Positions 1 through 62,162 of a stretch of DNA of 64,000 nucleotides are shown here, piece by piece. The notes beneath the pieces are model-generated. The model was not told the DNA's origin. It did not search any database and saw only the letters and a program-made list of their open reading frames with translations. Both the position numbers and the translations under genes were made by a program. How positions within the stretch are numbered: the stretch's first letter is position 1; each line of letters begins with the position of its first letter. Source of the stretch: a virus (Duplodnaviria; Caudoviricetes); IMG/VR virus record IMGVR_UViG_3300029288_000071, positions 1 to 64,000 of that record. One strand, 5' to 3'.

Positions 1-3000
1 TAAAGTAGAAGAACTATCAAATAATGCAATGAATGTTGGAACTCCACTGCCTGAAATTCCAGTAGCAGTTAATGAAGCACTTAAACTAGTTACGCTTCCA
101 CTTAGATCATTTATTTGACTTGTAAAACCTGTTACTGTTGAGCTCAAACTAGTAACAGATGAGCTTAAAGCAGTTATTTGAGATCCATAACCTGTAACAG
201 TACTACTCAAAGAATTTATTTGAGAAGTAAATCCAGTTACAGTTCCTGATAAACTAGTTACACTTCCACTTAGAGCAGTTATTTGAACTGTATGACCAGT
301 AACTGTTCCTGATAAACTAGTAACTGAAGCACTAAGTGATATAACTTTTGCTGATAAACTGCTCAAACTAGCACTTAAAGAAGTTACACTAGAACTTAAT
401 GTAGAAACTTGACCAGAGACTGTTGTTAAATTAGAACTCAAACTAGTAATTAAACTTGTAGTTCCAACATCCAAAACTACAAGTAATTTTCTGATTTGTG
501 TATTAGTCATACCAGATGTTAATGCAGTCCAAGAGTCACCTAAATTAGTAGATTTGAAAACACCCCAAGTTGATTCACCAGCAAATAAATCTGTTCCTGA
601 AACTGCTAAAGCATTTACTGCTGGTGCACTTGCTGAAGTTGGTAAACCTGTTGAGCATTGTGTCCAAGTATTTCCTCCATCTGTTGATCTTACTACTCCT
701 ATATCATTAGTTGCACAAGAAAATAATGTAGTACCTATTTTTGCAAAATCCATGTAATCATTATTAGAAACCGATGTATATACTGTTGTCCAATTAGCTC
801 CACTATCAGATGATCTTTCTATATGATTTGTAGTACCAGCATATATTGTGGTTCCATCAACAAATAAAGAATAAACTTGTAAACTAGACATTCCAGCACT
901 TGAAGATATCCAACTAGCTCCACCATTAGTAGATTTATAAATACCTGCTCCATAAGTACCAGCATATAAATCATTGCCCATAAGAGCAATAGCAAAAACA
1001 TCATAATTTGTTGGTAAACCTGAATTACTTGCAGCCCAACTTGCTCCATTGTTTGTTGATTTATAACATCTACCACCTAAAGAATCTATAGCTGCCCAAA
1101 TAATTGAACCACTTATACAGAAATTCCAAACAACAGCTAAATCATCTAATCCTGTATTTGATAAAGTCCATGATGCTGCATTGTTAGAATTTTTATAAAC
1201 TTTTTTGCCACTTCCAACACCCAAAAATACATCACCTGAAGTATTTGCAGTCAAAGCATAAGCATAAAGATTTGCTAATCCAGTATTAAATGCAGACCAA
1301 TTAACTCCACCATTTGTAGATTTAAATATTCCACCACCATTAGTACCAGCATACATTACATTTTGTGTGGGTTGAGTAACTATGCCACTAAGAGCAGAAA
1401 TTTGTATTGTGTGTCCAGTTACAGTTGAACTAAGAGCATTTATCTGGTCTGTATAACCAGTTACTGTTGCTGACAAACTAGTTACACTAGAACTCAAACT
1501 AGAAATTTGAGAACCATAACCTGTAACAGTAGAAGATAAACTATTAATTTGATCTGTATAACCCGTAACTGTTCCACTTAGACTTGTAACACTACCACTC
1601 AAATCTGAAATTTGAGAAGAATAACCAGTGACTGTGCTGCTTAAGCTTGTAACAGATGAACTCAACGAATCTATTTGAGAAGTAAATCCTGTAACAGTAG
1701 AAGATAGACTAGTTACACTTCCACTTAGATCATTTATTTGACTTGTAAATCCAGTAACAGTAGAACTTAAACTAGTAATTGATGAGCTTAATGTAGTAAT
1801 TTGAGAACCATAACCAGTTACTGTAGAACTCAAACTGTCTATTTGTGAAGTGAAGCCTGTAACTGTTCCACTCAAGCTTGTTATACTTCCACTAAGAGTA
1901 GTAATTTGATTAGTTTGTCCTGTAACAGTTGAAGATAAAGAATATAAATCTGCACTTACACTAGTGATGCTATTAAAAGTATTAAATTCAGCATTTGTTA
2001 TAGTTCCTGTTGCAGTCGATGTTGATGATGCTAATGCCATACTCAATTCTTGAATATTCAAAGTTAATCCATTTGCAACACCTATAGTAACTGGAGCATG
2101 TGTTCCTGTTGATGATGTTATTGCAGCACTTAATGTTTGAATATCTTGTGTATGTCCTGTAACTGTTGAACTTAAAGCACTAATATCTAAAGAATTTCCA
2201 GTAACTGTTGAACTTAAACTATTAATTTGTGTAGTCAAAGAACCAGTTGCAGTTTGTAAACTAGTAACTGAAGCACTAAGTGAAGTTACACTTGAACTTA
2301 AAGAATTAATTTGTGTTGTAAAGCCAGTAACAGTAGAAGATAAACTTGTTACACTTGAACTCAAACTTGAAATGTCAGAAGAATAACTAGTGATAGATGA
2401 TGATAAACTATCTATTTGAGAAGTAAGTGTACCTGTAGCACTTTGTAATCCAGTTACAGTTGAGCTTAATGAAGAAATATTTTGTGAATTTGCAGTGACA
2501 GTTGAACTCAAACCTGACAAATCAAAAGAATCTTGCTTTCCATTAAATGTTGACCAATCAGTATTTGTTAATGAACCTGTTGTAGATGAAGATGCTAAAG
2601 CTAAACTTAATTCTTGACCAGATAAAGATAAACCATTTGCTGAATTGCTAAGCGTAACTGCTGCATGACTACCTGTTATAGAAGTCAAAGAAGCACTCAA
2701 ACTAGTTACAGTTGCACTAAGACTTGTAACACTAGAACTTAAAGAATCTATGTTAGCAGTTTGTCCAGTTACAGCCCCACTTAAACTTGTAATAGAATTA
2801 ATTTGACTTGATATAGTGCTTGTTATAGAATAAAAATAATTCCAATCACCTGAAGTAAGATAACCATTCTTATCACTTGAAGCAGATTGTAATGCAATTG
2901 AATATGCAGTTAAAGGTAAGTGATAATATTGATCTAGAGCACTTGCTCCACCTTGTAAACCAATAAGAGAATTATGTACTGAAGTTACTCCACTAAGACC

Positions 3001-3480
3001 TGTAAGACTGTCAACAATAGCATGTTGTGCTTGAGTCAAATGATAAAATTGATTAAGAGAAACTGAACCACCTTGTATTCCTGAAAGCCCATTATGAATT
3101 CCAATTGGTATTCCTGATTTTATGCTTCCATCTACTTGATATGTAGCATCTAATGTCCAAGTTTCATTAACTTGTAATGCTATTTTATATAAAACTCGAC
3201 CAGTAGAACTATCAACATATTTTACAATTGCCGTAATAGGAGCAGTATCACAGTTATTAAGTGTAATTTCTTTTATTACTCTTCTAACAGAAGCAGTTGG
3301 TGAATCAACAACAACTACTGGAGTTGTATGATTTAAAATTCCTCCTGTTGAACCTTCAACAAAAGCATTTGTACTATCATCAGCCCAATGTGATGTAAAA
3401 TCGGGATTTAGAGTTGTTGCAGAAGCAGATAACTCTATTGTAATAGATTTGTTAGTTGAGTCTAAGACTAGTGTTTTCAT
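1..3480 (-). CDS. Long tail fibre/adhesin (3' end outside window): Ser/Thr-rich heptad repeats plus a BNR/YCF48-like beta-propeller at ~520-1360
   Basis: Absent from the ORF track because it runs off the window. ATG at 3480 (MKTLVLDSTNK...). The frame stays open where I translated it. It carries SSTVTG..SQISSL repeats and W...N.GL...YAGT.GGG.FKSTNGG propeller blades. Confidence 0.75.
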   Translation of the reverse strand, partial: MKTLVLDSTNKSITIELSASATTLNPDFTSHWADDSTNAFVEGSTGGILNHTTPVVVVDSPTASVRRVIKEITLNNCDTAPITAIVKYVDSSTGRVLYKIALQVNETWTLDATYQVDGSIKSGIPIGIHNGLSGIQGGSVSLNQFYHLTQAQHAIVDSLTGLSGVTSVHNSLIGLQGGASALDQYYHLPLTAYSIALQSASSDKNGYLTSGDWNYFYSITSTISSQINSITSLSGAVTGQTANIDSLSSSVTSLSATVTSLSASLTSITGSHAAVTLSNSANGLSLSGQELSLALASSSTTGSLTNTDWSTFNGKQDSFDLSGLSSTVTANSQNISSLSSTVTGLQSATGTLTSQIDSLSSSITSYSSDISSLSSSVTSLSSTVTGFTTQINSLSSSVTSLSASVTSLQTATGSLTTQINSLSSTVTGNSLDISALSSTVTGHTQDIQTLSAAITSSTGTHAPVTIGVANGLTLNIQELSMALASSTSTATGTITNAEFNTFNSITSVSADLYSLSSTVTGQTNQITTLSGSITSLSGTVTGFTSQIDSLSSTVTGYGSQITTLSSSITSLSSTVTGFTSQINDLSGSVTSLSSTVTGFTSQIDSLSSSVTSLSSTVTGYSSQISDLSGSVTSLSGTVTGYTDQINSLSSTVTGYGSQISSLSSSVTSLSATVTGYTDQINALSSTVTGHTIQISALSGIVTQPTQNVMYAGTNGGGIFKSTNGGVNWSAFNTGLANLYAYALTANTSGDVFLGVGSGKKVYKNSNNAASWTLSNTGLDDLAVVWNFCISGSIIWAAIDSLGGRCYKSTNNGASWAASNSGLPTNYDVFAIALMGNDLYAGTYGAGIYKSTNGGASWISSSAGMSSLQVYSLFVDGTTIYAGTTNHIERSSDSGANWTTVYTSVSNNDYMDFAKIGTTLFSCATNDIGVVRSTDGGNTWTQCSTGLPTSASAPAVNALAVSGTDLFAGESTWGVFKSTNLGDSWTALTSGMTNTQIRKLLVVLDVGTTSLITSLSSNLTTVSGQVSTLSSSVTSLSASLSSLSAKVISLSASVTSLSGTVTGHTVQITALSGSVTSLSGTVTGFTSQINSLSSTVTGYGSQITALSSSVTSLSSTVTGFTSQINDLSGSVTSLSASLTATGISGSGVPTFIALFDSSSTL
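1390..2520 (-). repeat. Degenerate ~63-nt (21-aa) coding repeats of the tail-fibre coiled coil
   Basis: Recurring acc(t/a)gt(a/t)ac(a/t)gt..aact...aaactagt units; also present at 60-450 and 3700-3950. Confidence 0.75.
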
Positions 3481-3489
3481 AATTTTCTC

Positions 3490-4560
3490 TTATATTGCAA
3501 ACCAAGTAAAACCTTTTGTACTACTATTTACTATTGGTGAAGTTGTTAATGAATCAACATATGTTTTAGATGCTAATTCATTTGAAGCAATTGGAGTACT
3601 ACTTAAAGCATAAAATCTTTCAGCAGTTATAGAATATGCTCCTAAATTTACATTAGCAGTAGCACCTGTATAAGGAACTTTTGAATTATCTAAAGCTCCT
3701 GTAGCTGATTCTAAACTAGTTATGCTAGAAGACAAACTACTTATTTGTGAAGTAAGAGTTCCAGTTGCTGTTTCTAAACTAGTTATAGAAGAACTAAGTG
3801 AAGAAATATTTATTTCAATACCAGTTACAGTTGAACTTAATGAATTAATTTGACTTGTTAATGTTCCTGTTGCTGATTGTAAACTAGTAACACTAGAACT
3901 TAAACTTGATATTTGATTTGTATGTCCAGTTACAGTAGAGCTCAAACCAGCCAAATCAAAAGAATCTTGTTTGTTGTTGAAAGTATTCCAATCAGCATTT
4001 GACAAAGTTCCAGTTGTTGAAGATGAAGCTAGAGCCATGCTTAAAATTTGACCAGACAATGAAAGTCCATTTGCAGTTCCAAGAGTTACAGCTGCATGTG
4101 AACTAGTAGCAGAAGTTAATGCAGCACTTAAAGCAGCAATTTGAACAGTATGACCTGTAACTGTTGAACTAAGTGCCGCAATTTGAGCATCATAGTTTGC
4201 AGTTGCACCTGAACCAGCTGGAGCAAATACTCCATCACCTCTCAAAAATTCATTATAATTTGTCCAAGGTATTGCACTAATTGCTATTCCATCACTAACC
4301 AAAACTCCTGAAAGAGGCAAAGTAATAGAACCTGCTGAAACTGAAATTGCAGAAACAGTTATTGAAGTAATAGAATTTGCAGAAATCGATTGAATACTTT
4401 GTAATTCGTCTACAGTAGTAGTTTGTTTAATTACTTGATTATAAGCAGTTAAAGAACTCACAGTTAAACTACCCAAGCTAAGATGTGCAAAACTACCACT
4501 CATTGATGGTTGTTGATACATCCCAAATTTTGTTACAACTTTTCCTCTTTGTTGTTCCAT
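3490..4560 (-). CDS. Tail-fibre-associated coiled-coil protein, paralogous to 1..3480
   Basis: Shares the SHAAVTL..ANGLSLSGQ.LS.ALASSSTTG...DW.TFN.KQDSFDL module; VPYTGAT.NVNLG fibre motif. Confidence 0.65.
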   Translation of the reverse strand: MEQQRGKVVTKFGMYQQPSMSGSFAHLSLGSLTVSSLTAYNQVIKQTTTVDELQSIQSISANSITSITVSAISVSAGSITLPLSGVLVSDGIAISAIPWTNYNEFLRGDGVFAPAGSGATANYDAQIAALSSTVTGHTVQIAALSAALTSATSSHAAVTLGTANGLSLSGQILSMALASSSTTGTLSNADWNTFNNKQDSFDLAGLSSTVTGHTNQISSLSSSVTSLQSATGTLTSQINSLSSTVTGIEINISSLSSSITSLETATGTLTSQISSLSSSITSLESATGALDNSKVPYTGATANVNLGAYSITAERFYALSSTPIASNELASKTYVDSLTTSPIVNSSTKGFTWFAI

Positions 4561-15847: not shown

Positions 15848-17074
15848 CTACTTTACTTTCATATCAAGATTCAACTGGTGAGCAGTCTGTGCTTGCCATA
15901 ACTGAATTAATTCATTAACACTTCCAGCCTGGCCACCACCCTTACCATCACCACCTACTACTAAAGGAACAAAATTACTCTTACCTTCTTTAAGAGCATC
16001 TGCATATCTGAAATTGACTTCTTTGTAAGCTTCAAGTTTCATCTCCAAAGCACCGTTAGCTTGCATAATAAGTCTTTGTTTTGCAGCTTCACCTTCACCT
16101 TCATAAATTTTTGCTTGTTTATTTTGAGCTTGAGCTAAAGCATTTAACTTAGCAACTTCAAGCTTTTGCTGAGCTTCTGTAACTTGCTGAGCTTTAATAA
16201 CTTCTTGTTCCCATTTAGCTTTTGCTGCATTAGCTTCACCTTCTTTGGCTGCAGTAATAGCTTTCTGTTCTGCTTCTTTAGCTTGTGCTACTGCAGTTTG
16301 AACTTGCATAGTAGCTTTTTGCTGTGTAGAGATTTGCTCTTCAACTGTGGGATCATATGCAATTTCATTGATTGAAAGGTTAAATGTTTTAACTCCAAAT
16401 AAACTTAAAGGAGAAACATCTTGGCGTAAGAAGTTACCTTTTTCATCAGTTAAAATTTTAACAACATTAACTGTTTTCAAAATTCCAGTCATAGGATCAG
16501 GAATTTTTTCTGGTTCTGTTGCTGTTTGATAAACTCCATTTTGAATCTGATCTTCAATATATCTTAACAAGTCAGTTCTTCGTGAAGAATAAGATTCAGC
16601 ACTAGAAATCATTGGACCAACCATATAAACTGATTTTTCAATTACAGTTCTTACAAGTTGTTGTTCAACTGCACTTTCACTTCCATATTTTCTGTGCATA
16701 GCAGTTAAAAATTCTTCAGTTAAAGGTTTTTCCCAAGCTAATGAACCAGAGATGTTTCCATGTCCACCATCATTAAATCGGACTTTAATAGATTGCTGAA
16801 GTTCAGACCCTTGGTCATCTTTACTAGAAAACCAATATTGAGATCGAAGCTTATACTTTGTAACTTCTCCAAAACCCTGCCATTTAACACCCGGAGTAGT
16901 TGACCATGTAAGAGTTCCAGCAAATGGTGATTGAACAACCATTAATTCTCCAGCATCCAAATCTTCCCAGAGTTTGAATGGAAGAACACTTAAAACAATT
17001 GCAGCAATAATAGCAAGCCCAAGATATACTGGGTTGATACCATTGCCAGATGTACCTGATGCATTGTTGTTCAT
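15848..17074 (-). CDS. SPFH/band-7 domain membrane protein
   Basis: N-terminal TM; VRFNDGG.G.ISG; AE-rich coiled coil. Start moved to MNNNASG. Confidence 0.8.
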   Translation of the reverse strand: MNNNASGTSGNGINPVYLGLAIIAAIVLSVLPFKLWEDLDAGELMVVQSPFAGTLTWSTTPGVKWQGFGEVTKYKLRSQYWFSSKDDQGSELQQSIKVRFNDGGHGNISGSLAWEKPLTEEFLTAMHRKYGSESAVEQQLVRTVIEKSVYMVGPMISSAESYSSRRTDLLRYIEDQIQNGVYQTATEPEKIPDPMTGILKTVNVVKILTDEKGNFLRQDVSPLSLFGVKTFNLSINEIAYDPTVEEQISTQQKATMQVQTAVAQAKEAEQKAITAAKEGEANAAKAKWEQEVIKAQQVTEAQQKLEVAKLNALAQAQNKQAKIYEGEGEAAKQRLIMQANGALEMKLEAYKEVNFRYADALKEGKSNFVPLVVGGDGKGGGQAGSVNELIQLWQAQTAHQLNLDMKVK

Positions 17075-17135
17075 ATTAATACCTTTCATATTGTTTGAAT
17101 TTTGTTGTAGATTGTTAGTTAAAATTGTTTCTTGT

Positions 17136-17396
17136 TCATTTTTTCTTTTTCTTTGCTGCTTTTTCTTCTTCAAATTTGGCTTTTTCATCATCGAGTTCTT
17201 TTTGAGTTTTCTCAATAGTTTTTTCGATTTCAAATTCTTCTTTTTTGTCATTGAGTTCTTCCAATTTATTTAATAATTTTTTTCTTCGTAAAAAAGGAAA
17301 AATTGGTGTACCATTTTTGATAGGCACAAAAATTTGTGTTAAAAGAATTAACACAAAAAGTAAAAAGAAAAGTATTTCTATTAATCTTAACGCCAT
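17136..17396 (-). CDS. Small membrane protein upstream of SPFH
   Basis: N-terminal TM, P.FPF motif, coiled-coil tail. Confidence 0.65.
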   Translation of the reverse strand: MALRLIEILFFLLFVLILLTQIFVPIKNGTPIFPFLRRKKLLNKLEELNDKKEEFEIEKTIEKTQKELDDEKAKFEEEKAAKKKKK

Positions 17397-17421
17397 AAAT
17401 TTATCTCCTTTTTGTTATTGT

Positions 17422-17748
17422 TTATTTTGATTTATTTTGATCTGGTCCAAATTGTGTAACTTTTTTGTCATTGTCTACCCATATCGTATATGGTGCAAAA
17501 TGATCTTTATCTATTTTAATACAAACATCATAACGATAAGTGAAACCCGACCAAAGAATTGGTGTTTCTTTTAAAAGTAATGCAGTAGCTTTGCCATCGC
17601 AAATATACTCATTTAGAGTATGATATTCTTCTTTAGATTGTTGTTTTGAAGGTGGCCACCATAGAAATAAACTAAGAAGTAATACAAAAATTATTGTAAA
17701 TAAAACTGCTGTTAAAATTTTAATTTTATGACTTATGTTCAGATTCAT
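17422..17748 (-). CDS. Hypothetical membrane-anchored protein
   Basis: N-terminal TM. Confidence 0.6.
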   Translation of the reverse strand: MNLNISHKIKILTAVLFTIIFVLLLSLFLWWPPSKQQSKEEYHTLNEYICDGKATALLLKETPILWSGFTYRYDVCIKIDKDHFAPYTIWVDNDKKVTQFGPDQNKSK

Positions 17749-17986
17749 ATTTAATATCTCTTAATACTGTGCAATAAGAATTAGCATCAACACATTCAAC
17801 AGCAATTTGATGTAAAGCTTGATATTGATTTTCTGATAATACTGTTAAGTCAGATATTGATTTTAAAAATTTTTCTACATTATAATCTAAATTAGTAGTG
17901 CACCAACAATATCTTAAAAGTTTTTCATAATCTGATTTATTATAAGTTTTAGATTTTCTTCTAACTACTTTAGCGATATTTTTCAT
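17726..17986 (-). CDS. Hypothetical protein
   Basis: Coupled ORF. Confidence 0.6.
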   Translation of the reverse strand: MKNIAKVVRRKSKTYNKSDYEKLLRYCWCTTNLDYNVEKFLKSISDLTVLSENQYQALHQIAVECVDANSYCTVLRDIKYESEHKS

Positions 17987-18232
17987 TTATACTTTGGGTG
18001 CAATGGATTGTTTCTGAACTATTGAAATTGGGAGTCTATGTATTTCTCCTGTTTTCACATCTTTAACTACTAATCCATTTTGTCGAACACGATATCCAAG
18101 TCCAAGAACTTCATATTCTTGTTCATTGTGTTTTATGATTGTTCCTAAAATTGTTTCTGGTATGTTCAGTCGGGCCCATTTCTTCTGAAAACGAAGTTTG
18201 GCTTCTTCAATTGTAATATCTTTGCAGGGCAT
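17987..18232 (-). CDS. Hypothetical protein, resembles the C-terminus of 24627..25085
   Basis: Shared YEVLG...D..T..I....I pattern. Confidence 0.6.
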   Translation of the reverse strand: MPCKDITIEEAKLRFQKKWARLNIPETILGTIIKHNEQEYEVLGLGYRVRQNGLVVKDVKTGEIHRLPISIVQKQSIAPKV

Positions 18233-18235
18233 ATG

Positions 18236-18448
18236 TTAATCTACTTTCTTTTCAGTGGGAGTTGTTTTTTGTTTACTAGCTTCAGTAGTTTCAACAAATT
18301 TTAAAATTGCGGGATAATGTTCTACAATTAATTTAGCTTTAGATAAACCAAAACCAAAAAATTGAGAGAGATTCATTACGGGGTTACCTTTGAATTCTGA
18401 ATATTGAGGATATTTCTTTTCTTTTTCTTCCATTTTTTCACCTTTCAT
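18236..18448 (-). CDS. Conserved-type phage hypothetical protein
   Basis: SEFKGNPV...FGFGLSKAKLI; first gene after promoter. Confidence 0.65.
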   Translation of the reverse strand: MKGEKMEEKEKKYPQYSEFKGNPVMNLSQFFGFGLSKAKLIVEHYPAILKFVETTEASKQKTTPTEKKVD

Positions 18449-18466
18449 TTAAATTTGAATTTATAC

Positions 18467-18495
18467 AATTTAATATTTAACTACTTAAGAGTAAA
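18467..18495 (-). promoter_or_regulatory. Early promoter
   Basis: TTTACT-N17-TAAATT. Confidence 0.75.
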
Positions 18496-18504
18496 TAAAA
18501 ATGC

Positions 18505-18885
18505 TTACTTTAATTTTTCTATTTCTTTCTTAAGTCTATCAAGATATGCGTCTTGAAGTGAATCAACTCTGCATTGTTCTCCATATAAAACACTTGTTTT
18601 TGATGAATCAGACTTTACATGTTTTTTATACTGAATAGTTAAATTTGTTAACTGAGATTTGACTGTGTCAATATTCAAGTTTAGCTTATTAATATCATTT
18701 CTTATCTTTGTAGTGTTATCTGCTTCATTCCAGAGAACAAAACCTCCAAGAAAAATTATTACAAGTAAAGTAAAAATGAAATTAAAATTTATAGTCCATT
18801 TCATATCAGAATCCTTTTCTGCTTCATCATTTTCATCAGCATCAAAGTATTGTTTTACTAGTGCTTTACGTTCTTCATCAGTCAT
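18505..18885 (-). CDS. Single-TM coiled-coil protein
   Basis: Hydrophobic helix followed by heptads. Confidence 0.6.
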   Translation of the reverse strand: MTDEERKALVKQYFDADENDEAEKDSDMKWTINFNFIFTLLVIIFLGGFVLWNEADNTTKIRNDINKLNLNIDTVKSQLTNLTIQYKKHVKSDSSKTSVLYGEQCRVDSLQDAYLDRLKKEIEKLK

Positions 18886-18904
18886 ATTAAATCTAAAGTA
18901 ATAC

Positions 18905-19225
18905 TTAACTACTTAATTGTAAACCTTTTTCTCTAAGTATTTGTTTTCTATATGAATTTAAGCTTGAACAACAACCAGCACCAAAAGCTGGATTCAATTC
19001 TGCTCCTGGAAGATCTTTAATTTTAGAGTATTGATCACACAGATTTGATTCAGATAAGAATTTACATTGCTTCTTTTGAAAATCCCAAATACCAAATGCA
19101 CAAGGTGCTACTTTACAACAATAACCGCAATTTATGCATTTATTTTTGACTTGTCTTTCGATGTGTCTCTCCAAGCTATATTTCTTACAGTTGTCCAAGG
19201 AATAACAACTAATCCAGTTTGACAA
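18905..19225 (-). CDS. YkgJ-like Cys-cluster (CxxCxxCC) protein
   Basis: CINCGYCC...C..L....LC..Y. Confidence 0.6.
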   Translation of the reverse strand: MSNWISCYSLDNCKKYSLERHIERQVKNKCINCGYCCKVAPCAFGIWDFQKKQCKFLSESNLCDQYSKIKDLPGAELNPAFGAGCCSSLNSYRKQILREKGLQLSS

Positions 19226-19348
19226 TAAACAATTTCTTCACAATCATTACAAAATGCTTCATAATACTTACTTATGTCTCCAGTTATTGCTGGCAAATTA
19301 TCTGTCATAGAAATTTCACTTAGATTTCTATGTTCACAAAGGTCTAAA

Positions 19349-19636
19349 CTATGACGAGTGACTATTATTTGCATAATAATCTCCTTCATTTTTTTTGCCT
19401 AACATTTTCACTTCAGAAATAAGTTTTCTTTCTGCATTTATCTTTCCTTGAACTTGAACACATTTTCCTACAATCCAACAAACAACTTGAAATATTATAA
19501 AAGATAGTGCTAATGATCCAATATCATAGAAATTTATTTTAAACAAATATCTAATTAGCCACAAAGGAATAGTATATGCTAAACCTCCCCAAGCAAATAC
19601 TTTAAGTAGTCTTCCTTCAAATTCTTGGATTGTCAT
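19349..19636 (-). CDS. Two-TM membrane protein
   Basis: Hydrophobic helices. Confidence 0.6.
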   Translation of the reverse strand: MTIQEFEGRLLKVFAWGGLAYTIPLWLIRYLFKINFYDIGSLALSFIIFQVVCWIVGKCVQVQGKINAERKLISEVKMLGKKNEGDYYANNSHSS

Positions 19637-20051
19637 GATTTTCTACTCCTCTCGGATATTCTTTTATCCAAGGTAAGTCATAATTGTTTGATAATTTATA
19701 TCCCTTTTTTGTAGCTAAAAATCTAAGATTTTTTAAAATATATTTGTATTCTAATTGTGTAATAGGCAATGGTAATGAGAAGGGACACTTGCTCCATTTA
19801 TCAAAACATTTTGTATTATCAAATGCAAATCTAAAATTAACATCTTTATAAACATGTTCATTAAATTCACAAAATCCACCCCTGATCCATTTGCCACTAA
19901 CTTGAGCAAATCGATAATCAGGATCAAAACGAGAAACAATTTTTACTTTGTAACCATTTTTTCGAAGAAATTTAACAAGATTATCAAAAAGACTTTGATT
20001 AACCTTTTGTATTTTTGTCATTTGAATATTTTGTTCTGACATTTTTGACAT
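19617..20051 (-). CDS. Hypothetical protein
   Basis: ORF track. Confidence 0.6.
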   Translation of the reverse strand: MSKMSEQNIQMTKIQKVNQSLFDNLVKFLRKNGYKVKIVSRFDPDYRFAQVSGKWIRGGFCEFNEHVYKDVNFRFAFDNTKCFDKWSKCPFSLPLPITQLEYKYILKNLRFLATKKGYKLSNNYDLPWIKEYPRGVENHDNPRI

Positions 20052-20212
20052 ATTCCGCTAATAGTAAATTCTTTAAGAGCTAATTCATCTTTGAATTCTT
20101 CAAAGTTGATTGAATTGCTACATAAAGGACACTGTCGATTCTTAAGTCGTTCAATAGTATCAGGATGGATTAATCCTGACTTTTGTGCTTTTTCAAGAAT
20201 TGATAGATTCAT
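20018..20212 (-). CDS. Small zinc-ribbon protein
   Basis: CPLC...KEF.ISG.CQ.CQ..IF. Confidence 0.65.
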   Translation of the reverse strand: MNLSILEKAQKSGLIHPDTIERLKNRQCPLCSNSINFEEFKDELALKEFTISGICQKCQNKIFK

Positions 20213-20224
20213 TAGTAAGTTATT

Positions 20225-20491
20225 TCAACCCTTTTCTTTTAAAAATATTATTTTCTTTCCTGATGCTTCTAATTGATTAAATTTCAAATCAATATCTCCT
20301 TCAAAATGTTCCATTAATGGTGTTACACTAAATCCCAAAACTATTTCAAATCCGCATCTGGGGCATTTGTAAAGGTCAGCAAACCAGAGTTTATAGAGTT
20401 CAGTGTCTTCATTCATCATTTCAGCTACAACCACACCATTAATTTCTGGTTTTAATTCTATTTCACAAGTAACACATACATTTTTAGGCAT
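20225..20491 (-). CDS. Zinc-ribbon protein
   Basis: CVTC...W.ADLYKCPRCG. Confidence 0.65.
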   Translation of the reverse strand: MPKNVCVTCEIELKPEINGVVVAEMMNEDTELYKLWFADLYKCPRCGFEIVLGFSVTPLMEHFEGDIDLKFNQLEASGKKIIFLKEKG

Positions 20492-20492
20492 T

Positions 20493-21497
20493 TTATTCTA
20501 ATCTAGATAATTGATCAGCATTTATATTGATATAAAGCTTATTTTTTCCTAAAGTTATCCAAATAATTTCAGTATTATGTTGTTTGTTAAATGGTGTATC
20601 AAATTTAGAAATACTTTTGAAAGTGATATTCTGACCAGTAATTGTTGAATCAAAAGTTATCCAATATCCCAAACACTTTTCATGAGATTTCCAAATTCTA
20701 TTTTCAACATGAAATATTGAATCAGGTAGAATTGGAATATAACTATCATAATAATGATAATTTTTACATATTATTTCCAATGCTTTTTCTTGAGAGATAT
20801 TTTCATGTGATGTCACTCGATAAATTTTTATGGTTTGCACAGACCGGAGTAATGGATATTTTGTGTCAGCACCTTCAAGATAAAAATGCCGTTCTTTTGT
20901 TTGCTTTGATGTAGTATATGTAGTTTCTCTATTTTGTCCAACATTGTGAAGTAGTGTAAATGCTTTATATTTCCCAAGATAAAGTACTTTGGATTTATTG
21001 GGAAACTCAACAATATCACCAATCTTCAATGAAGAGGGTTTTACTAAAGATTTTGTTTTTGTTTCTAACATTCTTTTAGTATCAGCAATAGCTTCTTGAT
21101 ACAAATCAGAATTAGTAGGAATAAGAATCAACTTACTCCCTTCATGAGCAAGAATCATTTTTTCAGTAAACTCATTCTTTACAATATCACAATGATCTAA
21201 AATTTTTGTTAAATTATTGACTGATATTTCAAATACAAAACCTTCTGGATGTTCAATATAAAGCATTGAGCGGCCACTGCCAAACCAATCTCGACTTCTT
21301 TTTGTATCTCCAAAAATCTTAAATCCTGATTTTGGCTGATTATCAATTTCTTTTATAGCAATGTGATGATCTCTCCAGGAATCAAAACTTCTAAGAGTTT
21401 TATCTTTTACTATATAAGCTAAAAGAAATTTTTCTTTTGATTCTTCATTGGTTCTTTTGTTGAACCCAACATAAAATTTTTCACTAATTTTGAGCAT
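20493..21497 (-). CDS. Hypothetical phage protein
   Basis: 334-aa ORF; N.PKSGFKI, HPEGF.FEISV.NL. Confidence 0.7.
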   Translation of the reverse strand: MLKISEKFYVGFNKRTNEESKEKFLLAYIVKDKTLRSFDSWRDHHIAIKEIDNQPKSGFKIFGDTKRSRDWFGSGRSMLYIEHPEGFVFEISVNNLTKILDHCDIVKNEFTEKMILAHEGSKLILIPTNSDLYQEAIADTKRMLETKTKSLVKPSSLKIGDIVEFPNKSKVLYLGKYKAFTLLHNVGQNRETTYTTSKQTKERHFYLEGADTKYPLLRSVQTIKIYRVTSHENISQEKALEIICKNYHYYDSYIPILPDSIFHVENRIWKSHEKCLGYWITFDSTITGQNITFKSISKFDTPFNKQHNTEIIWITLGKNKLYININADQLSRLE

Positions 21498-21593
21498 TTA
21501 CACCTCTACTACTTATCTCTACTTTTATTTGTTTAATTCTTCTTCTATTGGTATATGTATTTCAACTTGATTTTGTTCCATTTTCTTTTCTTT

Positions 21594-22397
21594 CTATTTA
21601 GTCATAAGCATTCTTTGAACAAGAGCTTTTCCATTATATTCTATTCGAGCAAAATAAACACCGGAAGCTAACTTTGATCCATCAAATTTTACCACAATAG
21701 TTCCAATTGCATTTCCTGAATATAATGTTGCAACTTCTTGGCCTACAACATTGTATACTTTTAAAGAAACATAACCTGATTTTGGAACTGAAAATTGAAT
21801 ATGAGTGCTTGGGTTAAACGGATTCGGATAGTTTGCACTCAAATGTAATTTATTTGGAAGATTTCCACCATCTTCGACACTTGATGTTGGCGGAGTAGTT
21901 GTAGTATCTATAGGTGGAACACTTGTTGTATCAACAGGTGGATCTATTACTGGAGGCACTGAAGTTGTGTCAACAGGTGGATCTATTACTGGAGGCTCTA
22001 TTACTGGAGGCACTGAAATTATTTGAACAGTTGGATAATAGTATGCCAAAGTTGCATCATTATCTATTTGTTTCAATCGATAAGTGTTACCTTCATATGT
22101 ACTTCTAAGAGCACATTCATAAGAATATGAAGCTCCACCATTATCTGGGCTTTTGAATCTTAATCTTCCTGAAACCATATTATCAGGAATTGCAAGCCAA
22201 TTTCCAGGCTCATTGTAACAATTCCATTCTAGAAGAAATCCGTAACTATTTGTTTCAGAAGAAGTAGTCCATTCAAAAATAACTTTTGAATTAACTGAGT
22301 CAATTGTCTGAACAAATGAAGACATTTGAACTCCAGCAAAAACAAGATTAAGTCCAACTAGACTTAACAAAACCAGTAACAAAGATAACTTTTTCAT
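21594..22397 (-). CDS. Secreted protein with T9SS type A-like C-terminal sorting domain
   Basis: Signal peptide MKKLSLLL...VFA; W.T.SETN..GF...YRLKQID.D domain; Pro-rich linker; NYPNPFNPST...LKVYN..GQEVATL...LASGVYF...MLMTK. Confidence 0.85.
   Translation of the reverse strand: MKKLSLLLVLLSLVGLNLVFAGVQMSSFVQTIDSVNSKVIFEWTTSSETNSYGFLLEWNCYNEPGNWLAIPDNMVSGRLRFKSPDNGGASYSYECALRSTYEGNTYRLKQIDNDATLAYYYPTVQIISVPPVIEPPVIDPPVDTTSVPPVIDPPVDTTSVPPIDTTTTPPTSSVEDGGNLPNKLHLSANYPNPFNPSTHIQFSVPKSGYVSLKVYNVVGQEVATLYSGNAIGTIVVKFDGSKLASGVYFARIEYNGKALVQRMLMTK
21915..22014 (-). repeat. Coding repeats PPVI(D/E)PPVDTTSV
   Basis: Direct repeats of tcaacaggtggatctattactggaggc. Confidence 0.8.
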
Positions 22398-22439
22398 TGT
22401 AAATCTCCTTAAGTATATGATTATCAAATTGTTATAGAT

Positions 22440-22468
22440 AATTTAATACTTAACTACTTAACAGTAAA
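22440..22468 (-). promoter_or_regulatory. Early promoter of the T9SS cargo gene
   Basis: TTTACT-GTTAAGTAGTTAAGTAT-TAAATT. Confidence 0.8.
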
Positions 22469-42430: not shown

Positions 42431-42805
42431 TTAAAATCCTTCATTAGCATATAATTCTTCAAGATCTTTTAAATTGCTAGGTGTATATTGATCCATTATC
42501 ATTGAAACTAATACTAAAGTTTTACTAGTAGAAAAAATATCAGGAAGATCTGTTTCTCCTTCATCACTTTCAGCTAGAATTTCATATACATTTCCCGTGT
42601 GTCCATGTTGAATAAGAAAATCTATCATTTTCTTACTAGTGATATGAGCATAGACATTTCCTTCTCTTTCTTGACCTTCTAATTCAACTAAATATTTAGT
42701 ATTACTGAGTTCTTTAGAATCTATTTCTTCTAAAGTAGTTTTTGCAGCAATACAAGCAAATGAGCTTGAACTAGAGTTACTAACAAAACCGAGTCGAGTT
42801 TTCAT
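42431..42805 (-). CDS. SNSS-leader family protein 1
   Basis: MKTRLGFVSNSSSSSF. Confidence 0.75.
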   Translation of the reverse strand: MKTRLGFVSNSSSSSFACIAAKTTLEEIDSKELSNTKYLVELEGQEREGNVYAHITSKKMIDFLIQHGHTGNVYEILAESDEGETDLPDIFSTSKTLVLVSMIMDQYTPSNLKDLEELYANEGF

Positions 42806-42841
42806 AAAATTCTCTCCTTTAATTTATATTTTTTAATTTCA

Positions 42842-43192
42842 TTATCCATCTCTCCAAGCTTCTTCAATAGTCCCAAATCTATTTTCTTCAATTTGATTAT
42901 CAAAAAGTTTATTTACTTCTTCTTTTACTCTTTGTTTAAATTGTGCTCCTGTTTCATTATCCTCTATTGAAGAATATGCTTGACCAATATAAAAGCAGTC
43001 AGAATATTCGCTACCATCAATAAAATAGAGCGATATATCTTTGTTTTTAGATTCTTCTTCTATTGCTTCATAAATACCTTCAGTATCAGGCAAATTTAAT
43101 ATTGTTTTGATTTCATTTGGATCTATGCTTATTCCATAGATACAAAATGATGTTGTACTGCTATTTGATATAAATCCTTTACGTGTTTTCAT
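42842..43192 (-). CDS. SNSS-leader family protein 2
   Basis: MKTRKGFISNSSTTSF; start moved to 43192 (AAGGAG SD). Confidence 0.75.
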   Translation of the reverse strand: MKTRKGFISNSSTTSFCIYGISIDPNEIKTILNLPDTEGIYEAIEEESKNKDISLYFIDGSEYSDCFYIGQAYSSIEDNETGAQFKQRVKEEVNKLFDNQIEENRFGTIEEAWRDG

Positions 43193-43193: not shown

Positions 43194-43511
43194 TTAGCAA
43201 CTCCTTGTTCCACAATAAATTTTTATTTTTTCTGTGAAACCCAAATCTTTTAAAGTTTGAGTTAACTTTTCAATATTTATTTCATCTATTTCCATTTCTT
43301 TACCTTCAAAAGCATCCTCACCATCTACAATAACTTTTCCAATAAAGCAATATGATCCATCATCAGTTAAAATTTCTAGCTTTGTTTTTTCTATTTTTTG
43401 TATAAATTCATCAAAGTCATCATCTTCATTTTTTGATAATTGATGCTTTATTCCAAGAATAGCAAAAGATGATGAACTACTATTTGATATAAATCCATTT
43501 CTTGCTTTCAT
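43194..43511 (-). CDS. SNSS-leader family protein 3
   Basis: MKARNGFISNSSSSSF. Confidence 0.75.
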   Translation of the reverse strand: MKARNGFISNSSSSSFAILGIKHQLSKNEDDDFDEFIQKIEKTKLEILTDDGSYCFIGKVIVDGEDAFEGKEMEIDEINIEKLTQTLKDLGFTEKIKIYCGTRSC

Positions 43512-43762: not shown

Positions 43763-43953
43763 AATGAAATTGCTTTTCCTCTTTTTTGATTACAATGAGG
43801 GCAAACTTCAAATACCCATTTAGTTTTACCACATTCACAAATTGTATTCTCAGGACATCCAATACTACATTCATAAACATGAATGTCTTCAAAGCATTTT
43901 TCAAATGGAATTTTTCCATCAGAACTCCATCTTATACTTCGTAAATCGGACAT
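43759..43953 (-). CDS. Small Cys-rich protein
   Basis: CECG...CPHC. Confidence 0.5.
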   Translation of the reverse strand: MSDLRSIRWSSDGKIPFEKCFEDIHVYECSIGCPENTICECGKTKWVFEVCPHCNQKRGKAISL

Positions 43954-45002
43954 TCTCTATTCCTTTTTAATAGACTATTTCTAAATTCAACTGTTTTTGG
44001 ATTAAACCAAACATCTTTACTAAAATCAGTTTCTGAAGTAATCTGTAATCCTTCTTCCCAATTTTGACATCCTTCACAAAAAGAACAAGGACTGTATTTT
44101 CCCTCTACATTAATATATGCAGAGAACAAAGAAGATTCACATCTTTCAGATATTTGTAATAATTGCTTTTCATTTTCTAGTCCAACAATACTATTATCAA
44201 ATTTAACTGCAGAACAACTATCAAAACCAAAATTGATATCATTTTTTAAACAATATTCTACTAATGATTTAAATTGTTCATTAGTAACAGAAGTATAGTT
44301 ATTCTGAATAGCTCTTCCTTTTTTCTTTAAACTTAAAAATACTATTGCATTTAATTTAGATAAGCGAGTATCAGTTTTAATATCTTTCAAAACTTTAAAT
44401 GCTTCATCATACGTCTGTTGAGATAGAAAATAATGTATATTTGTTTGTTTTAATCCTTTATCAGATAACATTTTTACAGCATTATAACATTCATCAATAT
44501 CATAATATGAAACAGCACAAGCACCAATATACTTTAACATTTCATCAGCTTGATTTTCTGTTATTCGTCCATTAATAGTGATGTTGGGAATTAATCCAAT
44601 TTCTCGAGTATACTTTAGAATTTCAAATAATTCTGGATTGCCTGAAATATCTCCAATTCCATAAGCTACTTGACAAATTGAATGTTTTACTTTTGGTAAG
44701 ATTATTTTAACTTGCTCTAAAGACATGTTTTTGCCTAATGCTTTATTGTCTTTATAGCAAAATTTGCAACCCCTTTTACAGACTTCAGAAATTTCCATAT
44801 CAAGAATTTCAGGACCAAACATTGAAAATTCTGGATCTTGTTCTTTTGTATTACCCCATCTCTGAAAGAATCCATTTCTTTTATCAAAAGTATAATTGTA
44901 ATTTTTACTTTTAACAATTTTCATTTTATCAGTATCAATAACAAGAAATTTTTCCAAAAACAACTCCTTTTCTACAAACGTTTTTTTATTTAATATCATC
45001 AA
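43932..45002 (-). CDS. Radical SAM enzyme with Cys-rich C-terminal (twitch/SPASM-like) region
   Basis: CKRGCKFC (CxxxCxxC); CES...YIN..G...PCSF; terminal CP.Y. True start may be slightly downstream. Confidence 0.85.
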   Translation of the reverse strand: MMILNKKTFVEKELFLEKFLVIDTDKMKIVKSKNYNYTFDKRNGFFQRWGNTKEQDPEFSMFGPEILDMEISEVCKRGCKFCYKDNKALGKNMSLEQVKIILPKVKHSICQVAYGIGDISGNPELFEILKYTREIGLIPNITINGRITENQADEMLKYIGACAVSYYDIDECYNAVKMLSDKGLKQTNIHYFLSQQTYDEAFKVLKDIKTDTRLSKLNAIVFLSLKKKGRAIQNNYTSVTNEQFKSLVEYCLKNDINFGFDSCSAVKFDNSIVGLENEKQLLQISERCESSLFSAYINVEGKYSPCSFCEGCQNWEEGLQITSETDFSKDVWFNPKTVEFRNSLLKRNRECPIYEV

Positions 45003-48588: not shown

Positions 48589-48945
48589 TTAACCTATATT
48601 GCTTATTCTTGCATGTCTTACACTATCAAGATCATCACATATAGTTTCAATTTCATCAAGTTTCTGCATCAATTTTGTATCAAATCTATACTTTGATATT
48701 TTTGCTAGTTTTTCTTTTAAAAATTTTTCATCTTTCAGTAGAACTTTTTGTTCTTTTAAAAGATCTTCTTTACGATTTTTTACAGTGTCTCTAAAGATTT
48801 CTAATTGTGAAGAATGAGCAGTATTAGTAATTCTTTTTAAAATAAATTCAAAAGTTTTAAAAGATAAATCTTTTGGTTCTGGTTTAAAACAAACCATAAA
48901 TGATGTAGTACTACTATTACTAACAAAACCTTTTCTAGTTTTCAT
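48589..48945 (-). CDS. SNSS-leader family protein 4, probably frameshifted near its 3' end
   Basis: MKTRKGFVSNSSTTSF; a protein-like -1 frame continues to 48455. Confidence 0.65.
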   Translation of the reverse strand: MKTRKGFVSNSSTTSFMVCFKPEPKDLSFKTFEFILKRITNTAHSSQLEIFRDTVKNRKEDLLKEQKVLLKDEKFLKEKLAKISKYRFDTKLMQKLDEIETICDDLDSVRHARISNIG

Positions 48946-49151
48946 AAAATTTTCATGTGTTTTTTAAAATGTTTTTCTAAATCTTTTTTATCCCAATTGA
49001 AAATGTCTTTGTCAGAAATATGTTGTACTTTATAAGATTTTTTGTTTACTTTAAGAACTCTATATTTACAACCACAATCTTCTAGAAGAATAGTATCTTT
49101 TTTGATTTTCATTTTAATTTAATACTTAAGATTTTCAATGTAAACAAAAAC

Positions 49152-57350: not shown

Positions 57351-57575
57351 TCATTTTTTAACTATTTCTACTTCTGCCCAAGCAACAAGATGGACCCATT
57401 CATTTTTCATATTTTTACAAAGTGAATACATTCCATCTATATGATAAAAATCTAATATTTCATCTTCTTCAATTTCAGGAGCAGCTGGAGGAATTTTTCT
57501 ACAATTTCTTTTTCCACTTGCTAATTGTTTACATACTTTAATTCTTGTATTTCTTGGAACATTATAAAGTTTCAT
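57351..57575 (-). CDS. Hypothetical protein
   Basis: Start moved to MKLYNVPRN (the predicted start lies inside a tRNA); HIDGMYS.C. Confidence 0.65.
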   Translation of the reverse strand: MKLYNVPRNTRIKVCKQLASGKRNCRKIPPAAPEIEEDEILDFYHIDGMYSLCKNMKNEWVHLVAWAEVEIVKK

Positions 57576-57577
57576 AG

Positions 57578-57651
57578 TATTCCCGAGCGGATTCGAACCG
57601 CTACAACACAATTTAGGAAATTGTGACTCTGTCCAATTGAGCTACGGGAAT
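57578..57651 (-). tRNA. tRNA-Arg(CCT)
   Basis: Cloverleaf; ACAAT-TTCCTAA-ATTGT; GGTTCGAATCC. Confidence 0.85.
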
Positions 57652-61933: not shown

Positions 61934-62162
61934 TAGGTTTTATGTCTTCAAAAATTGCTAATTTAATTTCTTGTGCGAAAATCCACGTATTTGGTTGGTC
62001 ATTTTGTTTTAGAATAACTTCACAATCTAGAAATTTTTTATAGAAATTAATTCCTGATTTTATTCTTTCTTCAGTACCTTCTATAGGAACTTTAGCAATT
62101 AGCAGAAAACGTCTATCGTCTATAGAAGCAGTTTCAAATATTGGGAAATATTGTATTTTCAT
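61908..62162 (-). CDS. Hypothetical protein
   Basis: Start moved to MKIQYF (the predicted start lies inside a tRNA). Confidence 0.55.
   Translation of the reverse strand: MKIQYFPIFETASIDDRRFLLIAKVPIEGTEERIKSGINFYKKFLDCEVILKQNDQPNTWIFAQEIKLAIFEDIKPIEEIKQLE

What the first reader, a model, noticed from the sequence alone, without database searches (positions are those of the whole stretch)
21594..22468. Phage-encoded minimal cargo for the host type IX-like secretion system
Seen: Sec signal, one Ig/FN3-like domain (QMSSF...W.T.SETN..GF...YRLKQID.D), a Pro-rich repeat linker and a complete NYPNPFNPST-type sorting domain, with its own early promoter and no evident catalytic domain. Knowledge: these are the C-terminal modules of T9SS substrates in Ignavibacteria and related FCB lineages. 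Inference: a payload-less decoy that jams secretion or coats the cell surface (superinfection exclusion, receptor masking). It also points to the host.
Basis: partly seen in the sequence, partly recalled or inferred. Interest (0 to 1): 0.72.

Follow-up and report, generated by a model that had tools for sequence, protein, structure and literature searches.

The report
Phage-encoded small T9SS surface protein
A 207-kb landfill phage carries a small gene, with a promoter-like element of its own, for a non-enzymatic protein that bears the export tag of its host's type IX secretion system; it probably decorates the infected cell's surface, which is a real but already reported kind of phage gene whose function nobody has tested.

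Summary
The minus-strand ORF 21594-22397 (267 aa) encodes four parts:
- a Sec-type signal peptide
- one FN3-like beta-sandwich
- a 57-residue Pro/Thr-rich repeat stalk
- a type A T9SS C-terminal sorting domain (TIGR04183 39 bits against a cut-off of 23; PF18962 38.6 against 27)

No catalytic domain was detected. A 29-nt promoter-like element sits about 45 nt upstream. It has 14 copies in the genome, all in gene orientation.

The gene lies inside a T4-type 207-kb phage, and its third-position GC (0.15) matches its phage neighbours rather than cellular homologues (0.35-0.71). One 66 %-identical relative keeps the whole architecture.

The FN3-like+CTD pair is the common C-terminal cassette of many T9SS cargo proteins of Ignavibacteriota/Bacteroidota. 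MAGs with full-length or CTD matches have the T9SS core proteins SprA and PorU.

The 'T9SS cargo' reading is supported. 'Decoy that jams secretion' has no specific support. Display on the cell surface is the more economical reading, and its purpose is untested.

Phage T9SS cargo is already published (Bellas 2020; de Jonge 2019). I found 70 more IMG/VR loci with such a domain, and this scan has noted the theme many times on other DNA. I class it as a new member of a known kind, of moderate interest.

The parts
22440..22468 (-). Promoter-like element TTTACT-N17-TAAATT (-35-like 22468-22463, -10-like about 22445-22440). It is one of 14 copies of a genome-wide family.
   Evidence: (families D5, D6, D8). 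All copies are on the minus strand, 12 of them at 18-56 kb, upstream of genes such as the NAD-dependent DNA ligase. The reversed-pattern control gave 0 hits.
22405..22410 (-). Shine-Dalgarno AAGGAG, 7 nt before the ATG
   Evidence: The same motif precedes most genes that follow the promoter-like element.
22335..22397 (-). Sec-type signal peptide, residues 1-21 (MKK, a 17-residue hydrophobic core, VFA|G)
   Evidence: Sequence inspection. The AF2 model has a helix at residues 3-13. 20 of 21 residues are identical in P0002. No dedicated predictor was available.
22017..22334 (-). FN3-like beta-sandwich, residues 22-127. It is homologous to the pre-CTD module of many T9SS cargo proteins.
   Evidence: (conserved W43, T45, E48, Y91, Y106, R107, D112), (Ihog FN3 Z 8.6), (up to 28 copies per genome).
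21846..22016 (-). Pro/Thr-rich stalk, residues 128-184. It contains 39-nt tandem repeats and three DTT motifs.
   Evidence: D9 (the repeat family spans 21895-22036, overlapping the last FN3 codons); low pLDDT. It is absent from cellular homologues, and 44 of 57 residues are identical in P0002.
21597..21845 (-). T9SS type A C-terminal sorting domain, residues 185-267
   Evidence: Fold matches to the CTDs of PorU (Z 9.3), mirolase (Z 9.0) and NucA bound in the T9SS complex (Z 8.4).
21594..21596 (-). Stop codon

Best explanation
The gene encodes an accessory phage protein that is sent out through the host's own export route.

**Shown.**
- It is a long-resident gene of a T4-type 207-kb phage.
- It has a promoter-like element of a class shared with replication-type genes, and a strong ribosome-binding site.
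- Its product is a signal peptide, one FN3-like domain, a Pro/Thr stalk and a genuine type A T9SS sorting domain, with no recognisable enzyme.

**Inferred from established T9SS biology.**
- Sec takes it to the periplasm.
- The C-terminal domain is recognised by the T9SS translocon (SprA/PorV).
- The PorU sortase removes that domain.
- The mature ~160-residue product, an FN3 head on a ~55-residue extended and possibly O-glycosylated stalk, is anchored by its new C-terminus to anionic LPS, or else released.

**Most likely purpose (speculative).** It re-dresses the surface of the infected cell early in infection. That could shield or occlude receptors against superinfection, or against loss of progeny on cell debris. 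A role in adhesion is a secondary possibility.
For: **Phage context.**
- Major head, baseplate wedge and head-tail adaptor genes lie at 1-17 kb. NAD-dependent DNA ligase, RtcB and PRPP synthase genes lie at 49-54 kb.
- The record is a 207,030-bp virus record, estimated 91 % complete.
- An independent Logan contig of the probable source run joins the gene to its 3' phage neighbours with no differences (17000-22372).
- A landfill run from a second study holds an identical 251-nt piece inside the gene.

**Long residence.**
- Gene GC3 is 0.153. Phage neighbours are 0.11-0.20 and cellular homologues 0.35-0.71.
- On the tree, P0001 and P0002 form a 100/100 pair on a long stem, inside a clade of environmental cassettes.

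**Selection.** P0002 (66 % identity) keeps the signal peptide (20/21), the FN3 domain (68/97), the stalk (44/57) and the CTD (61/83).

**Export signals.**

**Expression signals.**

**No payload.**. The N-domain is the spacer-like module found before the CTD in peptidases, sortilin/BNR, CHRD and TED proteins.

**Recurrence in phages.**
- 70 IMG/VR loci carry a type A CTD.
- Six small (244-412 aa) phage proteins show only the CTD in Pfam. Three of them are on complete 180-210-kb phages.

**Rationale for a surface role.** Phage resistance in Flavobacterium maps to gliding and T9SS genes (bioRxiv 10.1101/2020.10.02.323337; PMC9804748).
Against: - There is no experimental or transcript evidence.
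- The host is unknown, so a working T9SS in it is inferred, not shown.
- The signal peptide was judged by eye.
- Whether type A cargo is anchored or released in Ignavibacteria-like hosts is unknown.
- The exclusion function rests on analogy only.
- Five related phage records lack any T9SS CTD gene, so the gene is dispensable for the lineage.
- 'No Pfam hit' does not prove that the 106-residue domain lacks an activity.
Confidence: 0.6

Rival explanations
1. Secretion decoy. The cargo-less protein is made in excess early in infection and competes for, or stalls, the SprA/PorV/PorU pathway. Host surface proteins, including receptors for rival phages, then stop being delivered.
For: - The gene has a promoter-like element of a class shared with replication-type genes and a strong SD.
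- There is no payload.
- The CTD is complete and well conserved.
- T9SS and gliding functions are needed for phage sensitivity in Flavobacterium (10.1101/2020.10.02.323337; PMC9804748).
Against: - Nothing in the protein suggests a plug: it is a small, well-folded beta-sandwich like those that pass the translocon in hundreds of native cargoes.
- Cells themselves encode equally small SP+FN3-like+CTD proteins (P0060, P0090, P0067).
- A decoy would not need the lineage-specific, conserved 57-residue stalk or a conserved FN3 head.
Confidence: 0.1
2. Released soluble factor. After PorU cleavage the FN3-stalk product is not anchored but shed into the medium. There it binds a polymer, a neighbouring cell or a competitor phage.
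For: - Many type A cargoes of non-Porphyromonas species are released rather than anchored (established T9SS knowledge, from memory).
- FN3-like modules often bind ligands.
- The two phage versions differ in loop insertions and deletions within the FN3 head.
Against: - No ligand-binding family match was found.
- An extended stalk makes more sense for a tethered head than for a free one.
- The tools here cannot tell this reading from the anchored one.
Confidence: 0.15
3. Functionless remnant. This is the tail end of a captured host cargo gene that lost its enzyme domain and is drifting.
For: - The cassette is clearly of cellular type.
- Its distribution among related phages is sporadic.
- It sits on a long branch.
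Against: - The reading frame is intact and the signal peptide is fused precisely to the domain.
- It has its own promoter-like element and SD.
- Its codon composition is fully adapted to the phage.
- A 66 %-identical relative keeps every module and the derived residues.
- The fold's core residues are retained.
Confidence: 0.08
4. Virion decoration. This is an Ig-like protein that ends up on capsids or tails, like Hoc or the BACON-repeat proteins, and the 'sorting domain' serves only as another Ig-like fold.
For: - Ig-like and FN3 domains are common on virions (BFVD matches to phage FN3 and structural proteins).
- crAss-like phages place T9SS-domain ORFs near head genes (PMC6949934).
Against: - A cleavable Sec signal would remove the protein from the cytoplasm, where heads and tails assemble.
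- The gene lies outside the structural block, behind a promoter-like element shared with replication genes.
- The CTD keeps all family motifs.
Confidence: 0.05

Closest known systems
Phage-encoded T9SS type A cargo of 'Cryophage' (Bellas et al. 2020, Nat Commun, PMC7468147)
   Same: Both are phage genes that end in a T9SS type A sorting domain and are presumed to use the host T9SS. In both cases the genes are accessory and variable.
   Different: The Cryophage cargoes carry an endoglucanase, a GH39 domain or a PA14 domain. Here there is no recognisable enzyme or lectin, only the FN3-like pre-CTD module on a Pro/Thr stalk. The phage is also different: a 207-kb T4-type phage, probably of an Ignavibacteria-like host.
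T9SS sorting-domain ORFs near BACON-repeat genes in crAss-like phages (de Jonge et al. 2019, Viruses, PMC6949934)
   Same: Both are phage ORFs that combine Ig-like, non-catalytic domains with a T9SS sorting domain. Neither has a tested function.
   Different: Those genes sit beside head genes and contain BACON repeats. This one sits among genes that follow an early-type promoter-like element, and it has a signal peptide and one FN3-like domain.
C-terminal Ig-like domain + CTD arrangement of cellular T9SS cargo (for example P. gingivalis RgpB IgSF+CTD; solved CTDs of PorU 6za2, mirolase 8qb1, NucA 8glk)
   Same: The domain order and folds are the same. The CTD aligns to solved CTDs at Z 8.4-9.3 with rmsd 2.3-2.6 A. 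The FN3-like+CTD cassette is 30-40 % identical to cellular ones.
   Different: It lacks the N-terminal functional domain that precedes the cassette in most cellular proteins. It has a stalk inserted between the two modules, and it is encoded by a phage.
Early phage envelope proteins that block receptors or entry (T5 Llp lipoprotein, T4 Imm/Sp, phi80 Cor); comparison from my own knowledge
   Same: These are small, signal-peptide-bearing, non-enzymatic envelope proteins made by the infecting phage. This is the functional analogy proposed here.
   Different: There is no sequence or fold relationship. Those proteins use the Lol or inner-membrane routes, not T9SS. An exclusion function is untested here.

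Membership tests
T9SS type A cargo (TIGR04183 / PF18962 Por_Secre_tail) | HMM match above the curated cut-off | tested here: met
   TIGR04183 scores 39 bits against 23. PF18962 scores 38.6 against 27. The six-frame genome search gives 41.5 bits.
T9SS type A cargo (TIGR04183 / PF18962 Por_Secre_tail) | The domain lies at the extreme C-terminus | tested here: met
   The match covers residues 190-263 of 267. The terminal Lys is invariant in 62 aligned homologues.
T9SS type A cargo (TIGR04183 / PF18962 Por_Secre_tail) | N-terminal Sec signal peptide | tested here: met
   By inspection only: MKK, a 17-residue hydrophobic core and VFA|G. The model has a helix at residues 3-13, and 20 of 21 residues are conserved in P0002. 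No SignalP-type tool was available.
T9SS type A cargo (TIGR04183 / PF18962 Por_Secre_tail) | Seven-stranded beta-sandwich fold like solved CTDs | tested here: met
   PorU CTD 6za2 Z 9.3 over 84 aa. Mirolase CTD 8qb1 Z 9.0. NucA CTD 8glk_D Z 8.4 with 75 of 75 residues aligned. PorZ 5m11 Z 8.0.
T9SS type A cargo (TIGR04183 / PF18962 Por_Secre_tail) | The producing cell has the T9SS core (SprA, PorV, PorU, GldKLMN) | tested here: inconclusive
   The host is not identified. Five MAGs whose proteins match P0001, four of them labelled Ignavibacteriota/Ignavibacteriales/Ignavibacteriaceae, all have PorU (756-966 bits) and SprA.
T9SS type A cargo (TIGR04183 / PF18962 Por_Secre_tail) | T9SS-dependent export and CTD cleavage | not testable with these tools
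   This needs expression in wild-type and T9SS-null cells.
Fibronectin type III domain (Pfam PF00041) | Sequence-family HMM match | tested here: not met
   No fn3 match at E <= 1. The domain belongs to an unnamed family found before the CTD.
Fibronectin type III domain (Pfam PF00041) | FN3-type beta-sandwich fold | tested here: inconclusive
   Ihog FN3 Z 8.6 over 109 aa, fibronectin Fn7B89 Z 8.2, LEP-R FnIII Z 8.1. Other beta-sandwiches score the same, and Z near 8 is common.
Phage-encoded T9SS cargo (Cryophage type, PMC7468147) | The gene lies within a bona fide phage genome | tested here: met
Phage-encoded T9SS cargo (Cryophage type, PMC7468147) | Enzymatic or lectin passenger domain | tested here: not met
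   No Pfam, NCBIfam or PHROG family matches residues 22-184.
Superinfection-exclusion envelope proteins (T5 Llp, T4 Imm/Sp) | Blocks adsorption or DNA entry of further phages | not testable with these tools
   This is an analogy only. No homology was sought or found.

The most novel reading that the evidence does not exclude
The phage uses the host's type IX secretion system as a delivery route for an early 'shield': a stalked FN3 head covalently planted on the LPS of the infected cell. The shield masks T9SS-dependent receptors. This would be a superinfection-exclusion mechanism not yet described for any phage. It may be widespread, because small non-enzymatic T9SS cargo genes recur in several unrelated 170-210-kb phages.
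Probability: 0.25. Interest if true: 0.7.

Novelty: new member of a known kind. Interest (0 to 1): 0.4.

Why it matters
Phages of the Bacteroidota/Ignavibacteriota group often depend on surface structures that the type IX secretion system delivers. Phage genes with the T9SS tag have been reported, but none has been tested.

This is a clean, minimal example: a promoter-like element, a signal peptide, one small domain, a stalk and the tag. Together with similar small genes in other very large phages, it gives a simple construct for asking whether phages re-dress or block the host surface through T9SS.

It also gives a host clue (a T9SS-bearing FCB bacterium, most likely Ignavibacteria-like) for an uncultured 207-kb landfill phage.

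Tried and rejected
**Searches for the close relative and sister phages**
No synteny check or dN/dS was possible.
- tblastn against GenBank phages found nothing.
- A sister-phage search with the neighbouring gene found nothing.
- The sister phage found through the capsid gene (L084, 92 % identity) ends 3.3 kb past that gene and does not reach the locus.
- Five related phage records have no TIGR04183 match.

**Promoter work**
- The generic sigma-70 scanner did not flag the upstream element, and no terminator was found.
- The T4 late-promoter word TATAAATA is not enriched (13 found, 11.8 expected), so a contrast between late and early promoters could not be drawn.
- My first genome-wide promoter pattern had the wrong spacing and gave 0 hits. 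It was corrected.

**Expression**
- No RNA holder was listed among the sequencing runs.

**Fold and family searches**
- Foldseek against the PDB with the whole model gave only generic two-domain Ig/FN3 tandems.
- Pfam on six neighbouring genes found nothing.

**Host inference**
- Shine-Dalgarno use (phage 22/48; Ignavibacteria-labelled loci 14/39; Calditrichia 15/52; Zixibacteria and others 16/41) does not discriminate between hosts.
- NCBI names for the nearest cassettes say only 'Bacteroidota bacterium'.

**Tree**
- The viral rows are not monophyletic, and long branches limit any donor inference.

**Other**
- One script call returned nothing.
- Complex prediction was not used, because the report claims no specific binding partner.

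Full report
**What is there**

The finding's coordinates cover a minus-strand gene and its upstream control region.
- The ORF runs from the ATG at 22397 to the stop at 21594-21596 (267 aa, P0001).
- The ATG is preceded by AAGGAG with a 7-nt spacer. This makes it a better start than the TTG at 22427.
- The protein begins with a typical Sec signal: MKK, then 17 hydrophobic residues, then VFA|G.

The protein ends in a type A T9SS sorting domain.
- TIGR04183 scores 39 bits against a curated cut-off of 23, and PF18962 scores 38.6 against 27, over residues 190-263.
- A six-frame search of the whole 207,030-bp virus record finds this one copy and no other.

**Structure**

An AlphaFold2 model built on 62 homologues (mean pLDDT 79.5) shows three regions:
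- a beta-sandwich at residues 24-127 (block-mean pLDDT about 69-94)
- a poorly modelled, partly disordered segment at about 128-184
- a second beta-sandwich at 185-265 (pLDDT about 79-97)

The C-terminal sandwich aligns to solved T9SS sorting domains:
- PorU 6za2, Z 9.3, rmsd 2.6 A
- mirolase 8qb1, Z 9.0
- NucA bound in the T9SS complex 8glk_D, Z 8.4, with 75 of 75 residues aligned
- PorZ 5m11, Z 8.0

The N-terminal sandwich aligns best to FN3 modules (Ihog Z 8.6, fibronectin Z 8.2, LEP-R Z 8.1). These scores are middling, other beta-sandwiches score alike, and the Pfam fn3 model does not match. I therefore call it FN3-like and do not file it in PF00041. No Pfam, NCBIfam or PHROG family covers residues 22-184.

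The linker (SVPPVIEPPVIDPPVDTTSVPPVIDPPVDTTSVPPIDTTTTPP...) is encoded by tandem repeats with a 39-nt period (D9).

**It is a phage gene, and an old one**
- The window carries a major head protein (phrog_138, 229 bits), a baseplate wedge subunit and a head-tail adaptor at 1-17 kb. It carries NAD-dependent DNA ligase, RtcB and PRPP synthase genes at 49-54 kb.
- The record is estimated 91 % complete.
- A Logan contig of the probable source run covers 17000-22372 without a difference, joining the gene to its 3' neighbours.
- A landfill metagenome from a second study and year holds an identical 251-nt piece inside the gene, at 21908-22158.
- Third-position GC of the gene is 0.153, the same as its phage neighbours (0.11-0.20). 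Homologous cassettes in cellular loci have 0.35-0.71.

The gene is therefore neither an assembly chimera nor a recent capture.

**Control region**

- The sequence TTTACT-N17-TAAATT at 22468-22440 belongs to a repeat family.
- The degenerate pattern TTTACN-N11-ARNTNTTARATT occurs 14 times in the genome. All copies are on the minus strand, and the reversed-pattern control gives none.
- Twelve copies lie between 18 and 56 kb. Those inspected are followed within a few tens of nt (about 5-55) by a start codon, mostly preceded by an SD. They include the copies ahead of the DNA ligase gene and upstream of an ATPase-gene block.
- No copy lies in the structural block at 1-17 kb.
- The very high read depth and contig breaks at about 22455 are explained by this repeat.
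- The class is 'early or middle' by association only. No transcript data exist.

**Relatives**
- One close relative exists. P0002 is 66 % identical, 276 aa, on a 1273-bp ENA contig, and has the same four-part architecture.
- Per-part identities between P0001 and P0002 are: signal peptide 20/21, FN3-like 68/97 aligned, stalk 44/57, CTD 61/83.
- The differences are mostly loop insertions and deletions in the FN3-like head, plus one extra stalk repeat.
- All other hits are 40 % identical or less, yet they cover residues 23-267. Both folded modules together form a cassette (LPVEMTSFTA..W.TATE.NN.GF.IER...YRLKQIDNDG....NYPNPFNP...).
- In cellular proteins this cassette follows pectate lyases, pectinesterases, LamG, DUF3494 and many unnamed domains.
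- The Atlas structure search finds the same module before the CTD in M14 peptidases, sortilin/BNR, CHRD and thioester-domain proteins, most commonly from Ignavibacteriota.
- In a sample of 151 genomes of the phylum that holds one Ignavibacteriota MAG, 35 carry the module. Some have up to 28 copies, inside frames of about 245-2,700 aa.
- Cells also encode minimal versions: P0060 (224 aa), P0090 (236 aa) and P0067 (223 aa) are a signal peptide, a short QYTGGxGRGD segment, the module and the CTD.
- The stalk is specific to the two phage-type proteins.

**Origin and host**
- In a maximum-likelihood tree of 68 cassettes, P0001 and P0002 form a 100/100 pair on a long stem (1.01 changes per site).
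- That pair is nested in a 100/100 clade of 33 environmental cassettes, which also contains a cassette from another phage (L250). The named Ignavibacteriales cassette (L004) lies just outside.
- Among one-per-species genomes, the best full-length matches are an Ignavibacteriales MAG (L004, 32 %), an Ignavibacteriota MAG (L008, 30 %) and a 'Bacteroidetes' MAG (L009, 28 %). The CTD alone matches many FCB lineages.
- All five MAGs tested have PorU (756-966 bits against a cut-off of 420) and SprA. They are L004, L008 and L009, with full-length matches, and L059 and L072, labelled Ignavibacteriaceae, with CTD matches.
- The gene thus points to a T9SS-bearing FCB host, probably Ignavibacteria-like. 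The actual host is not identified.
- Shine-Dalgarno usage did not discriminate between candidate hosts.

**Not unique among phages**
- Bellas et al. 2020 (PMC7468147) described T9SS type A cargo in 'Cryophage' (an endoglucanase, a GH39 domain, a PA14 domain).
- de Jonge et al. 2019 (PMC6949934) noted T9SS sorting-domain ORFs in crAss-like phages.
- A profile scan of IMG/VR found 70 loci with a type A CTD.
- Six small proteins from these loci (244-412 aa) show only the CTD in Pfam: L250 (333 aa), L298 (303 aa), L260 (412 aa), L301 (380 aa), L273 and L293. Five of them pass a crude signal-peptide check, and L293 also begins with a hydrophobic stretch.
- L250, L298 and L260 sit on 182-, 211- and 207-kb phage records rated 100 % complete. 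L301 sits on a 172-kb record.
- The L298 phage is a relative of ours (capsid 42 % identical). The L250 and L260 phages show no capsid match to ours. The gene type has therefore been taken up, or kept, more than once.
- BFVD also holds phage proteins annotated with this domain, including one of 260 aa.
- This scan has noted the theme many times on other DNA, including the L298 phage.

**How it most likely works**

Established T9SS biology predicts the following route, none of it shown here:
- Sec export and folding in the periplasm
- recognition of the CTD by the SprA/PorV pathway
- cleavage by PorU
- attachment of the new C-terminus to anionic LPS, or release

The mature product would be an FN3-like head on a stalk of about 55 residues. 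Three DTT motifs in the stalk fit the Bacteroidetes O-glycosylation motif D-(S/T)-(A/I/L/V/M/T), and they are conserved in P0002. The motif is recalled from my own knowledge, and its use in Ignavibacteria is unknown.

A tethered, projecting, non-enzymatic head made behind an early-type promoter-like element fits a role in altering the infected cell's surface. Shielding of receptors is the leading idea, because T9SS and gliding mutants of Flavobacterium become phage-resistant (10.1101/2020.10.02.323337; PMC9804748). This step is analogy, not evidence.

The 'jamming decoy' reading is not excluded, but nothing in the sequence favours it. Three observations argue against a mere plug: the conserved head, the conserved stalk, and the existence of cellular minimal versions.

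**Verdict**

It is a new member of a known kind, of moderate interest, and its main value is as a simple experimental handle.

Noticed in passing
window 18467-56239 (minus strand); also genome positions 77715 and 124114: There is a family of 14 promoter-like elements, (A/G)TTTACT-N17-TA(A/G)ATTAT..AACA, all in gene orientation. Those inspected are followed within a few tens of nt by a start codon, mostly with an AAGGAG-type SD. The -35-like TTTAC recalls T4 early promoters (from memory).
   Followed up: partly
L298:3635-4546 and L298:4589-6718 (210.6-kb complete phage, capsid 42 % identical to ours): A relative carries a 303-aa protein (signal peptide + Ig-like + FN3-like + T9SS CTD) near its capsid gene, separated by an HNH-like ORF. 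On the opposite strand is a 709-aa secreted protein with Pro-rich PPDTT linkers.
   Followed up: partly
L250:3566-4567 (181.7-kb complete phage), same hit statistics in L249 (contig from metagenome 3300037067): A phage with no capsid match to ours encodes a 333-aa protein: a signal peptide, an unnamed ~130-aa domain (YDPGVYENIHITLL...LQYFYPG), the FN3-like module and the CTD. The top metagenome hits P0005, P0006, P0009 and P0019 share that N-domain. The Atlas lists a 65-member all-viral cluster of 349 aa, so this may be a sizeable phage family.
   Followed up: partly
P0060, P0090, P0067 (cellular or metagenome proteins): These are minimal cellular T9SS proteins of 223-236 aa: a signal peptide, a short QYTGGxGRGD segment, the FN3-like module and the CTD. 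They have no passenger domain and no known function.
   Followed up: no
window 63-4177 (ORFs 1-3480 and 3490-4560, minus strand): Two large tail-type ORFs contain dense 63-nt (21-aa) and 42-nt periodic repeats (families D1-D4 and D7). Their PHROG matches are to tail needle, tape-measure-like and coiled-coil proteins, so they are probably fibrous tail proteins.
   Followed up: no
window 42758-42834, 43129-43192, 43448-43511, 48882-48974: DNA repeats encode a shared N-terminal peptide on several small proteins beside the radical-SAM-like gene at 43932-45002. Other reports of this scan have already described this.
   Followed up: no
window 57567-57601, 62154-62188, 63719-63753: Repeat family D14 looks like the 3' halves of tRNA genes on the minus strand (GGTTCGAATCC-type arms).
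   Followed up: no
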